Assembly: GCA_030264375.1 (NCBI GenBank)
Contig: JASCQW010000109.1
Location: 54,534,709 to 54,598,708, forward strand
Direction: 5' to 3'
DNA: 64,000 bases
From: Carcharhinus longimanus
Lineage: Eukaryota
Shown here one piece after another: positions 23,501-26,500 of the stretch. The position numbers were made by a program. Each line of letters starts with the position of its first letter. Position 1 is the first letter of the stretch.

Positions 23501-26500
23501 TCATTTTCACCTTCAGCCATATTCTATCTGAATTTCCTGGCTATGGTTAGCACCCAAACAGTATACCCTTCAGAACCTCCTTAACTAGATTCACAACCAT
23601 CTTGATGACTGATAGCCCAAAGACTCCTGTCTCTGGCTCCGTTAAATGGTTTGATTGGCGTGGGGAAAGCTAAAACTGCACAGTGACCTTGTCCAATCTA
23701 GTGTCCCTGCTCTCTTTCTCTCTCTCTTCAGCTTTCTGTCCTTTTTTACTCATGATGCTCCCTTCATTACAGGTTCTGTTCTATTCACAAAGATATATAT
23801 CTTTCTGGGTTCTGAGACCATTTGTAATCTAATATCCAATTAGCTGTCTATTTATCTTTTGCTCCAGCAATCTAAATTAAAGTTAATTTGCTAGTCACGA
23901 GTAAGGCTTACATTCACACTGCAATGAAGTTACTGTGAAATTCCCCTAGTCGCCACAGTCTAGCACTTGTTCGGTCAATGCACCTAATTGGCACATCTTT
24001 CAGAATGTGGGAGGAAACTGGAGCACCCGGAGGAAACCCACACAGACATGGGGAGGGCATGCAAACTTCACACAAACAGTGACCCAAGCTGGGAATCGAA
24101 CCCAAGTCCCTGGCGTTTTGAAGCAGAAGTGCTAACCACTGTGCCACTGTGCCACCCCATGAGCATTACATGAGCAATGGTGAGATGTTTAAGGTCACAT
24201 TGTTGGAATTGTCGTGGTTTCACAATGAACTAAAAGAAAATCTCAAAAGAAGTAAATACAGGCTTTTCCCCAAAGTACAAAGATCATAACATGAGACTTT
24301 GGAAGAATTATCCTAATTAGTTCATGTCTTGATATTCCATGAGTAAATGTAGTTATCTGAGTAAAAATCCCTGTTACCTGATAGTGAGGATTTGTCCAAA
24401 ATTGAGTTCAAAGTTGTTAACTTGTGCAATGAAGATAGCAGCAAGTGCCTCATACAGCGCAGTGCCATCCATGTTAATCGTGGCACCGACAGGCAGCACA
24501 AATCTGGTAATTCGTTTATCCAGCCCAATCTTGTCCTCCAGGCAGCGAAATGTGATAGGTAAAGTTGCTGAGCTAAAGGGACAGGAGGAAATAAAATTCA
24601 GCCCAGTGATACAGTGTCATAACAGCAGAATTTCTGTGAGCGAGCAAGTGTTGTGATGATATTATGCATTTAGGAAATGCATGTATATATGTTTATTGTG
24701 AGGTCAGATTCAGATCTAAATTCAGATTTTACACAGTGCCACGGTTTGGAGCTCTCCTGTCATGTTTTAGCCCTTTAAGTTAAACCTTTGAAAGATGTTT
24801 TGTTTCAGATTATATCCAATTCTCTTGGGCCTTTCTTTCCTGCTCCTCGTTTCTACTGAATATAACCTTTAAAAATTATAAACCACAGAAATTACCTCTG
24901 AGACTACAAATGATTAAATTATTAAATACTTATCTGACCTGTTGTGATGTTCAGCTCAGTTACACTGGCTAATCCCTGGGTTACACCAGAGATTAAACTG
25001 TAACGTTTCCAGCATAAATAATCAGAAAAATCCAGCATGTCTACCCCAAATCCCAGACCCTAAGCTCAGTGTTGGAGATGTTTACTGAGTCTTGGGCAGT
25101 GAAAATTAGCCCACTGGAAATTTAACCCTCCTGGTCACAGCACATATGTGTGTGGCAAGACTTTTGCAGGATCCTGACACATAATACACACCTGAATCCA
25201 GATTTTGCTACTATTGACATTGGCAGATTTGGGCAAATATTTTTAACATGTTCTCCTTTACTTACCTTTCCTCAACATCCAACCTCCTTCCACTCTGCCT
25301 ACACAGATCCCCTTTACCACTTCCGAAGCCTGACACAGGCCTGTGGTTGCACGCTGCTCTATTTTACTTTGCTAATTGGCCATTCTTCATACATCAGCTC
25401 AAACAATGAGTATTGACAGATTAATTAACCCAAGGGGCCAATCAGCCTGATCCTATATTCTGACCTCCCATACACACAGACCTCCAACAAGGATGACTAA
25501 ATTGCAATTAGCACCAGAATGCCCAGCTGTTTTTTCCCTTCCCTCATCTCCCATCATTGAAGCAAACTGTAGAGGTGTCTCTGCTGTCAAAGATGAGGTT
25601 AGCTATCTCAGAAATGATCAGTATTGGGCCTGCGATTTATCTGGTGCACATGTCTCACGTTGGACCACCCACTGAACCTATTTTTACAATTTCTAAATGC
25701 TGTCGAGAGGAATTTGGATCCTTTGGCAAAGAGCCGGCACAAAAACAATATGGCTGAGATTTGACATTAACAAGAGTGCAGTAGCATGTAGGCCACCCCT
25801 TATGCAACCATCAGATTCCACTTTCGATTGTCACCAATGGAAGTTAAAAGTGGGAGGTGTGTGTGACAGGCAGTTGATTCAAGATTGTCCTTGCTAAAAT
25901 TGAATTTCATCCTCGATGAGCCAAAAGGTCTCAACTTGTGCGGGAAAATGATACTATTCCTAACATTAAACACGTAACCAGGGTCAACATTAATTAGCAG
26001 TTACTTTGATATATCACCTAATATCTCTGATCCTTGTAGTACATGACCTAGTCGCTTTGTTCTCCTAAACATAGGAGGTAAGCATTCTATACAAATGTTT
26101 TGTTTGGTGCTGAAGAAATTCATAAACTGCTCTAGGTAGGCTAGAAGTTGTCCAATTTTCAATTACAAATTTAAGTACCTAATAAACATTTGAGCTAATA
26201 CCTATTTTTATATGTTGGTTGGCATGGCGATGATACATTAGGGGTTCACAGCAAATCAAGATGCTGTACAAATTATCTAATTGATTTCATGATGTTTTTT
26301 CACAAAAAAATTCTGTTTTCACTTTTGTTGTCATTCTGTGTTGGTATTTTGATACCGGACTCCAAAGGATTAATCAATGTGTTAGATAAGCTAGAGAAAA
26401 GCCTTCAAAATGACTTTGCATTATTACATTTGGAAAAAAAATCAATAATTGGAGGAAGAGTAGGTGTTGTGCTGGTGGATGGTGGTTTAATCAGATATAC

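What the first reader, a model, noticed from the sequence alone, without database searches (positions are those of the whole stretch)
24378..24572. Intact but isolated EAAT1-like exon 15 kb upstream of ZCCHC10 on the same strand
Seen: a 195-nt phase 2-2 exon with clean splice sites, no stops and the NMDGT motif. By eye I found neither the next exons (ITATAASIGAAGIP...DW; DR.RT..NVLGD) anywhere in 1-24377 nor the previous exon in the ~39 kb upstream. Known: human ZCCHC10 lies beside AFF4/HSPA4, not an SLC1A gene. Inference: (a) a non-mammalian SLC1A3-like paralogue with giant introns and ZCCHC10 nested on the same strand, (b) the 3' exons are hidden in the gaps at 22169, 19752 or 10878, or (c) an orphan or misjoined exon.
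Basis: partly seen in the sequence, partly recalled or inferred. Interest (0 to 1): 0.7.

Follow-up and report, generated by a model that had tools for sequence, protein, structure and literature searches.

The report
Shark SLC1A3 exon, probably misjoined scaffold
This is a genuine exon of the ordinary shark glutamate transporter gene SLC1A3 (EAAT1), and its odd position next to ZCCHC10 is most likely a joining error in a gap-ridden draft assembly, not new biology.

Summary
On the minus strand, 24572..24378 is a 195-nt open exon with an AG acceptor, a GT donor, phase 2 at both ends and the NMDGT motif. It matches Pfam SDF at E 1.9e-23. Its 64 residues are identical to the annotated EAAT1-like proteins of four sharks. 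No other SLC1A3 exon is in the window. A complete four-exon ZCCHC10 lies 15.2 kb downstream on the same strand.

The new-paralogue idea is not supported. Elasmobranch EAAT1-like proteins group with elephant-shark EAAT1, are 75-78% identical to tetrapod EAAT1, and are named slc1a3a in two sharks.

Nesting is unlikely. In 3 of 3 sharks where both genes are listed, SLC1A3 and ZCCHC10 lie on contigs of different length, meaning different chromosomes.

The exon and ZCCHC10 are separated by three 100-N joins. The join at 22169-22268 has no support, and both of its flanks are repeat pieces. My best reading is a true SLC1A3 exon within large introns, linked to ZCCHC10 by a scaffold misjoin. This is ordinary and of low interest.

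The parts
24378..24572 (-). 195-nt coding exon of the SLC1A3 (EAAT1) orthologue, residues 366/367-430 of the 543-aa shark protein. It is followed in the orthologues by a 135-nt exon and the terminal coding part.
   Evidence: Sequence and translation. Pfam SDF E 1.9e-23. 64 of 64 residues identical to four shark proteins. tblastn E about 1e-35. Border confirmed by exon-skipping isoforms.
24573..47561 (-). 22,989 N-free bases upstream of the exon that lack the preceding SLC1A3 exon. I read this as part of a large intron. It holds decayed reverse-transcriptase pieces, for example 33338-32994.
   Evidence: Gap list. No tblastn hit. RVT_1 E 2.5e-11 for 33338-32994.
22269..24377 (-). The only 2,109 bases that are contiguous with the exon on its downstream side. 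They contain no next exon, a SINE-like repeat copy at 23877-24159, and a repeat at the contig end (22269-22349).
   Evidence: no exon. (repeat copies). (22269-22349 matches 59099-59179, 78% by tblastx).
22169..22268 (.). 100-N join between the block carrying the SLC1A3 exon and the block carrying ZCCHC10. This is the likeliest point of a misjoin.
   Evidence: There is no end overlap. The left flank looks like a LINE ORF1 piece and the right flank like a LINE tail, and they do not continue one another (the LINE parts are named from recalled motifs).
17900..22168 (-). A decayed LINE whose parts lie in order on both sides of the 100-N run at 19752-19851. This gives weak support for that join.
   Evidence: ORF list. 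RVT_1 positions 68-107 at 19114-18809, E 1.7e-5, below Pfam's cut-off. The other pieces gave no Pfam hit, and their order is judged from recalled motifs.
10878..10977 (.). 100-N join whose two flanks share an exact 9-base end overlap, so the join is probably sound.
9107..9147 (-). ZCCHC10 coding exon 1 (ATG at 9147, MATPMHRLIARRQ..) within a CpG-rich stretch, 8601-9300.
   Evidence: Sequence. tblastn with Heterodontus and Rhincodon ZCCHC10. CpG scan.
5319..5480 (-). ZCCHC10 coding exon 2, the CCHC zinc knuckle.
   Evidence: Pfam zf-CCHC_3 E 1.1e-19. 100% identical to ZCCHC10 of three sharks.
3140..3178 (-). ZCCHC10 coding exon 3 (SGQGITENKMKKK.).
2079..2334 (-). ZCCHC10 last coding exon: a serine-rich tail ending ..EPPKKRRKS, then the stop codon.
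   Evidence: 85 of 85 residues identical to Mustelus asterias ZCCHC10.
7663..7762 (.). 100-N join inside ZCCHC10 intron 1. Exons 1 and 2 lie in the right order and on the right strand across it.
55058..55157 (.). 100-N join whose flanks share an exact 25-base overlap, so the join is sound and the gap is spurious.

Best explanation
The 195-nt stretch is the real antepenultimate coding exon of this shark's ordinary SLC1A3 (EAAT1/GLAST) gene. By the known EAAT structures (recalled, not tested here) it encodes the second arm of hairpin HP1 and transmembrane helix 7 with the NMDGT sodium/substrate motif. It cannot make a transporter on its own.

It looks isolated for two reasons.
- Shark introns are long and full of repeats. 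At least 23 kb of uninterrupted sequence upstream holds no exon.
- Only 2.1 kb of sequence is truly contiguous with the exon on its downstream side. Everything beyond that is attached through 100-N scaffold joins.

I infer that the link to ZCCHC10 is a scaffolding error, most probably at 22169-22268, where both contig ends lie in LINE-type repeats. On this reading ZCCHC10 is not nested in SLC1A3, and the remaining SLC1A3 exons lie elsewhere in the assembly.

Shown: the exon's identity, borders and orthology; the absence of other exons in the window; and the separate chromosomes in other sharks. Inferred: that the join is false in this assembly.
For: Exon identity:
- sequence; Pfam SDF 1.9e-23; EAAT1 structure chains are the best match.
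- 64 of 64 residues identical to the EAAT1-like proteins of Cetorhinus, Carcharodon, Mustelus and Scyliorhinus torazame.
- the 3' border equals the orthologues' border.

Orthology:
- in a tree of 22 rows, the 8 elasmobranch rows form a clade at 100/99, joined with Callorhinchus EAAT1 at 98/96.
- of 120 rows listed, 6 are chondrichthyan, from 6 different species. The named non-chondrichthyan rows are all tetrapod EAAT1/SLC1A3 (or unnamed-product) models at 75-78% identity.
- members of the same 90% cluster are named 'solute carrier family 1 member 3a' in Chiloscyllium punctatum and Heterodontus.
- all 16 chondrichthyan models aligned carry the complete 3' end, finishing ..SET[KT]M.

Other exons are absent from the window.

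Separate chromosomes (each entry seen on 1 contig):
- Rhincodon 128,789,535 vs 73,789,946.
- Mustelus 147,988,225 vs 103,476,532.
- Heterodontus 212,062,168 vs 122,080,158.
- That is 3 of 3 species with both genes listed.
- The same read-out gives equal lengths for human (182,045,439), marmoset (206,717,255) and elephant (236,636,829), so it can detect linkage.
- The closest ZCCHC10 match to the window is Mustelus (last exon 85 of 85), one of the three.

Assembly state:
- There are 11 N runs in 64 kb.
- The joins at 7663, 10878, 19752 and 55058 each have some internal support.
- The join at 22169 has none and is flanked by repeat pieces.

Long elasmobranch introns: passages of bioRxiv 10.1101/2025.06.08.657570 say that intron and intergenic lengths change in proportion to genome size.
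Against: - No read, mate-pair, Hi-C or long-read data could be seen, so the join at 22169 is unsupported rather than shown to be false.
- Four other 100-N joins in the window look sound, so this scaffolder was often right locally.
- The window's own species is not identified. A rearrangement in its lineage cannot be excluded from three other sharks.
- The chromosome evidence rests on contig lengths given by the protein index, not on coordinates. ZCCHC10 was listed for only 3 shark species (4 rows).
- The tree held only 3 rows not named EAAT1 and none from SLC1A2, SLC1A8 or SLC1A9. A hamster model named SLC1A6 (P0002) and Erpetoichthys fell beside the chondrichthyan clade with weak support (86/79 and 83/76).
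- The list shows only the best 120 of 7,974 hits, so a second shark copy is not strictly excluded.
Confidence: 0.6

Rival explanations
1. The adjacency is real in this species. A lineage-specific rearrangement brought SLC1A3 next to ZCCHC10. Either the last two coding exons lie beyond the window's start, so that ZCCHC10 is nested in an SLC1A3 intron on the same strand, or they sit in the N runs at 22169, 19752 or 10878.
For: - The exon is intact with good splice signals.
- Both genes are on the same strand.
- Four other 100-N joins in the window look sound.
- Large introns are usual in elasmobranchs (passages).
Against: - The two genes are on different chromosomes in 3 of 3 sharks with both listed, including the closest ZCCHC10 match, Mustelus.
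- They are also on contigs of different length in platypus, a caecilian, a bat, a marsupial, a fox and a frog.
- No downstream SLC1A3 exon is found in any determined base of 1-24377.
- The flanks of the 10878 run overlap by 9 bases, which leaves no room for an exon there.
Confidence: 0.15
2. This is an orphan extra copy. A recent segmental duplication carried a piece of SLC1A3 (this exon with its flanking intron) into the region upstream of ZCCHC10, while the working SLC1A3 gene lies elsewhere.
For: - There is only one exon in 64 kb.
- The exon's donor and the ZCCHC10 exon-2 acceptor are both phase 2, so a chimeric splice would stay in frame. That is a 1 in 3 coincidence.
Against: - There is no decay at all: 64 of 64 residues are identical to proteins of sharks from two orders, and the splice sites are kept. 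The copy would therefore have to be very young.
- No second copy or duplication boundary is visible. The exon's immediate flanks are unique within the window.
- The join at 22169 would still have to be true.
Confidence: 0.15
3. This is a new SLC1A3-like paralogue special to cartilaginous fishes, the first reader's option (a).
For: NCBI's automatic name for most shark models is 'EAAT1-like' rather than 'EAAT1'.
Against: - Only one such protein is seen per species.
- It forms a clade with Callorhinchus EAAT1.
- It is 75-78% identical to tetrapod EAAT1 over the full length and has the same ..ETKM end.
- It is named slc1a3a in two sharks.
- Passages of PMC2873418 report one elephant-shark orthologue per subfamily apart from SLC1A9.
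Confidence: 0.03

Closest known systems
SLC1A3 / EAAT1 (GLAST), sodium-dependent glutamate/aspartate transporter of vertebrates (Pfam PF00375, SDF)
   Same: - Residue-for-residue identity with the annotated shark proteins.
- By my count from the printed alignment, 58 of 64 residues identical to the human EAAT1 structure chain.
- NMDGT motif present, and the same exon border as in the shark and manatee isoforms.
   Different: Only one exon of the gene is present in the window, covering profile positions 256-319 of 387. The exons for HP2 and TM8, and everything upstream, are missing.
Genes nested in an intron of a host gene on the same strand
   Same: A complete small gene (ZCCHC10, four coding exons, about 7 kb) lies downstream of a host-gene exon on the same strand.
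   Different: No host exon is seen on the far side of ZCCHC10. In three other sharks the two genes are on different chromosomes.
Repeat-mediated scaffold misjoins in draft short-read assemblies
   Same: - Many N runs (11 in 64 kb).
- Contig ends lie in LINE/SINE-type repeats.
- 100-N placeholder joins, overlapping contig ends and an inverted duplicate at a join.
   Different: The misjoin is inferred from comparative evidence. It has not been shown with reads of this assembly.

Membership tests
SLC1 / Pfam PF00375 (SDF) transporter | Significant match to the family profile | tested here: met
   E 1.9e-23, 83.6 bits against a cut-off of 27.9, profile positions 256-319 of 387.
SLC1 / Pfam PF00375 (SDF) transporter | NMDGT motif of TM7 and the S-A-T-L-P part of the HP1 serine motif (the motif names are recalled) | tested here: met
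   Both are present in the translation and are aligned with the same residues of EAAT1 chains.
SLC1 / Pfam PF00375 (SDF) transporter | A complete transporter coding region at the locus | tested here: not met
   Only residues 366-430 of 543 are found in the window. The locus as assembled does not encode a transporter.
SLC1A3 (EAAT1) orthology group | Groups with EAAT1 of other jawed vertebrates rather than with another SLC1 subfamily, one copy per species | tested here: met
   - Clade with Callorhinchus EAAT1 at 98/96.
- 75-78% identity to tetrapod EAAT1 and no second shark copy among the 120 rows listed.
- Named slc1a3a in two sharks.
- Limits: few outgroups in the tree, and the hit list was cut at 120.
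SLC1A3 (EAAT1) orthology group | Conserved exon structure (195-nt exon followed by a 135-nt exon) | tested here: met
   The isoforms lacking 45 residues read ..TI-R-DRLRT in basking shark and manatee. The exon-size table of PMC2873418 is a supplement and could not be seen.
ZCCHC10 | zf-CCHC_3 zinc knuckle followed by a serine-rich acidic tail and a basic end | tested here: met
   - PF13917 E 1.1e-19.
- Exon 2 is 100% identical to three shark ZCCHC10 proteins.
- The tail is 85 of 85 identical to Mustelus.
Same-strand nested gene pair (SLC1A3 hosting ZCCHC10) | Host exons on both sides of the inner gene | tested here: not met
   There is no SLC1A3 exon below 24378 in the window. Sequence beyond the window's start cannot be seen.
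Same-strand nested gene pair (SLC1A3 hosting ZCCHC10) | The two genes are linked in related species | tested here: not met
   Contigs of different length in Rhincodon, Mustelus and Heterodontus, 3 of 3.
Scaffold misjoin | No read support across the join | not testable with these tools
   No reads and no other assembly of this animal were available. There is only indirect evidence: no end overlap and non-continuing repeat flanks at 22169-22268.

The most novel reading that the evidence does not exclude
In this shark lineage the neighbourhood is real. One possibility is that a rearrangement has placed the 3' part of SLC1A3 so that the whole ZCCHC10 gene sits inside its intron on the same strand. 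Another is that an intact extra copy of the exon lies 15 kb upstream of ZCCHC10. Because the exon's donor and the acceptor of ZCCHC10 exon 2 are both phase 2, such a copy could be spliced in frame into ZCCHC10 transcripts.
Probability: 0.1. Interest if true: 0.4.

Novelty: already known. Interest (0 to 1): 0.1.

Why it matters
It matters mainly as quality control. The window shows how a single, perfectly conserved exon in a fragmented shark assembly can look like an orphan exon or a nested-gene arrangement. The simpler reading is long introns plus one unsupported 100-N join. Anyone using this scaffold for synteny or gene models should break it at 22169-22268 until reads confirm the join. If the neighbourhood were real, it would be a modest curiosity of shark genome rearrangement and not a new kind of system.

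Tried and rejected
- **Search for the missing exons.** I ran tblastn of 8 chondrichthyan EAAT1 proteins against the window at E up to 10. I then ran a more sensitive search with the N- and C-terminal parts of P0010. Only the first 40 rows of that output were printed, all C-terminal, and none was better than E 4.6. Two weak minus-strand hits beside the 10878 gap (11242-11204 and 11116-11042, E 5.4, 54% and 36% identity) were rejected as chance, because these exons are almost invariant among sharks.
- **HSPA4, which I recall as ZCCHC10's neighbour in human.** This is weak evidence, because the motifs are recalled.
- **Pfam on a whole translated stretch.** Stop-free ORFs were sent instead. Five of ten long ORFs gave weak to moderate hits: four reverse-transcriptase hits and one ALKBH8_N hit. 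A sixth gave a weak PNMA hit. Nine short LINE-looking pieces gave nothing useful, so the naming of the LINE's endonuclease and ORF1 parts rests on recalled motifs.
- **Rfam at gathering score.** 0 matches.
- **Repeat copies bridging the gaps.** None bridged 22169, 19752 or 10878 at the DNA level.
- **Literature.** A full-text search for ZCCHC10 together with SLC1A3 found 2 papers. Judged from the search listing only, neither concerns synteny.
- **Spliced models.** Each exon was searched on its own: the SLC1A3 exon and ZCCHC10 exon 2. The step of joining ZCCHC10's four exons into one model and searching with it was left out.
- **Left unchecked.**
  - No shark genome DNA, reads or RNA-seq were within reach.
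  - Genome contigs holds only bacteria and archaea and was not used.
  - The N runs were left as they are.
  - The supplements of PMC2873418 (exon and intron sizes) could not be read.
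Full report
**What is there**

On the minus strand, 24572..24378 is a 195-nt open stretch. A pyrimidine-rich tract and AG precede it, and GTAACA follows it. It reads as one base, 64 codons and two bases, so both flanking introns are phase 2. The translation is [64 protein letters not shown].

It matches Pfam SDF (PF00375) at E 1.9e-23 over profile positions 256-319 of 387. Among solved structures its best matches are human EAAT1 chains, with EAAT2, EAAT3 and the ASCTs after them.

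**Whose exon it is**

A search for longer proteins found the 64 residues identical in the NCBI models called 'excitatory amino acid transporter 1-like' of four sharks:
- Cetorhinus maximus and Carcharodon carcharias (543 aa each).
- Mustelus asterias.
- Scyliorhinus torazame.

Other sharks and rays are 94-98% identical, and Callorhinchus and tetrapod EAAT1 are about 88-92% identical. In the 543-aa proteins the exon is residues 366/367-430. All 16 chondrichthyan models aligned continue with the hairpin-2 and TM8 sequences and end in ..SET[KT]M. The gene is therefore whole in other species.

A basking-shark isoform (P0345) and a manatee isoform (P0025) lack the next 45 residues. Both read ..TI-R-DRLRT at the junction, which is exactly what the exon's final AG gives when it is joined to a G. 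The 3' border in the window is thus the orthologues' border, and the next exon is 135 nt.

**New paralogue or plain SLC1A3**

- The Carcharodon protein is 75-78% identical to tetrapod EAAT1 over its full length. Among the 120 rows listed (of 7,974 hits), the 6 chondrichthyan rows come from 6 different species, and no second shark copy appears.
- In a maximum-likelihood tree of 22 rows, the 8 elasmobranch rows form a clade (100/99) that joins Callorhinchus EAAT1 (98/96). Branch lengths to tetrapod EAAT1 are short, whereas the EAAT3- and EAAT5-like rows sit on branches of about 2.7.
- Members of the same 90%-identity cluster are named 'solute carrier family 1 member 3a' in Chiloscyllium punctatum and Heterodontus francisci.
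- Passages of Gesemann et al. 2010 (PMC2873418) report one elephant-shark orthologue per SLC1 subfamily apart from an extra SLC1A9.

There are limits to this evidence. The tree held only three rows not named EAAT1. A hamster model named SLC1A6 and the Erpetoichthys row fell beside the chondrichthyan clade with weak support. The hit list was also truncated. Even so, I see no support for a novel paralogue, and '-like' is an automatic label.

**The rest of the window**

tblastn with eight chondrichthyan proteins at E up to 10 found nothing else that is credible. A more sensitive run used the parts of P0010 before and after the exon. I saw only its first 40 rows, all C-terminal, and the best E was 4.6.

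ZCCHC10 is complete on the same strand. Its coding exons are at 9147-9107, 5480-5319, 3178-3140 and 2334-2079, which add up to 498 nt.
- Exon 2 matches zf-CCHC_3 at E 1.1e-19 and is identical to ZCCHC10 of Rhincodon, Mustelus and Heterodontus.
- The last exon is 85 of 85 identical to Mustelus, 93% to Rhincodon and 96% to Heterodontus.
- A CpG-rich stretch covers the start, at 8601-9300.

Each exon was searched on its own. I left out the step of joining the exons into a spliced model and searching with that.

The remaining sequence is repeat-rich:
- Decayed reverse-transcriptase pieces.
- A SINE-like family with up to 14 copies, one of them 219 bases from the exon.
- Tandem arrays upstream of ZCCHC10.
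- No Rfam family at gathering score.
- No HSP70-type motif in any frame, tested with recalled motifs only.

**Are the two genes neighbours in sharks?**

The protein index prints the length of the contig on which each protein was seen. For the three sharks in which both genes are listed, each on one contig, the lengths differ:

| Species | SLC1A3 contig (bp) | ZCCHC10 contig (bp) |
|---|---|---|
| Rhincodon typus | 128,789,535 | 73,789,946 |
| Mustelus asterias | 147,988,225 | 103,476,532 |
| Heterodontus francisci | 212,062,168 | 122,080,158 |

The same read-out gives equal lengths for human, marmoset and elephant, where both genes share a chromosome. It gives different lengths for platypus, a caecilian, a bat, a marsupial, a fox and a frog. 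So in 3 of 3 sharks, from three orders, the genes are on different chromosomes. One of those sharks is the closest ZCCHC10 match to the window. This speaks against ZCCHC10 being nested in SLC1A3.

**State of the scaffold**

The window has 11 N runs: six of exactly 100, three of 10, one of 7 and one of 412. Three 100-N runs lie between the exon and ZCCHC10, and a fourth lies inside ZCCHC10. Internal evidence on each join is as follows.

| Join | Evidence |
|---|---|
| 7663 | ZCCHC10 exons 1 and 2 lie across it in the right order and strand |
| 10878 | The two flanks share an exact 9-base end overlap |
| 55058 | The two flanks share an exact 25-base end overlap |
| 19752 | Successive parts of one decayed LINE lie on both sides, in order (order judged from recalled motifs; one piece has a weak RVT_1 hit) |
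| 22169-22268 | Nothing supports it |

At 22169-22268 the right flank is a repeat that also occurs at 59099-59179. The left flank looks like a LINE ORF1 piece. The two do not continue one another.

Upstream, 22,989 N-free bases (24573-47561) lack the previous exon, so one large intron is real. That fits elasmobranch genomes, in which intron and intergenic lengths change in proportion to genome size (passages of bioRxiv 10.1101/2025.06.08.657570).

**Verdict**

- The exon is the ordinary SLC1A3 exon. I am about 95% confident of this.
- The most likely reason it sits 15 kb upstream of ZCCHC10 is a false scaffold join, probably at 22169-22268. I put this at about 60%.
- A real lineage-specific rearrangement, with nesting or with exons hidden in the gaps, is about 15%.
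- A young orphan copy of the exon block is about 15%.
- A new paralogue is about 3%.

I could not test the join itself. No reads, no other assembly of this animal and no shark genome DNA were within reach. The N runs were left untouched, and the supplement tables of PMC2873418 were closed.

This is an already known gene in a draft assembly, and interest is low.

Noticed in passing
window 55033-55182 (gap 55058-55157): The 25 bases before the 100-N run are identical to the 25 bases after it. The two contigs overlap, so the 'gap' is spurious.
   Followed up: yes
window 10869-10986 (gap 10878-10977): There is an exact 9-base overlap of the contig ends across a 100-N run. This is unlikely by chance and suggests the join is sound.
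   Followed up: partly
window 60417-60875 (gap 60690-60789): The 86 bases right after the N run (60790-60875) are the reverse complement, at 97.7%, of 60417-60502. This inverted duplicate at a join may be an assembly artefact.
   Followed up: no
window about 17900-22168, minus strand: A decayed LINE lies here, with pieces in order across the gap at 19752 and a SINE-like insertion near 19133-19292. One piece gives a weak RVT_1 hit (E 1.7e-5). Its other parts gave no Pfam hit and are named from recalled motifs.
   Followed up: partly
window 23877-24159 and about a dozen other places: A SINE-like repeat family has up to 14 copies in the window at 70-86% identity. One copy lies 219 bases downstream of the exon.
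   Followed up: partly
window 9234-9438 and 9644-10226: Tandem arrays of a 46-51-base unit (about 4 and 13 copies) lie just upstream of the ZCCHC10 start, next to a CpG-rich stretch at 8601-9300.
   Followed up: no
window 8874-8673, minus strand: The alternative first exon of Mustelus ZCCHC10 isoform X1 matches here at 86.5% across two frames, and the second alignment holds a stop. That isoform's reading frame therefore does not seem to be kept in this species.
   Followed up: no
window 24378 (donor) and 5480 (acceptor), minus strand: The SLC1A3 exon ends in phase 2 and ZCCHC10 exon 2 begins in phase 2. A splice between them would stay in frame (AG+G). This is a 1 in 3 coincidence, and there is no evidence of use.
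   Followed up: no
window 57751-58059 (+) and 57809-57768 (-): There is a weak PNMA/gag-like hit (E 0.0021, below the cut-off) and a CCHC pattern on the other strand. These are probably retroelement remnants.
   Followed up: no
protein P0304 (not in the window): A hamster model named AFF4 carries the ZCCHC10 zinc knuckle together with AFF4 domains. This looks like a read-through model, and it shows that ZCCHC10 and AFF4 are neighbours in that mammal.
   Followed up: no
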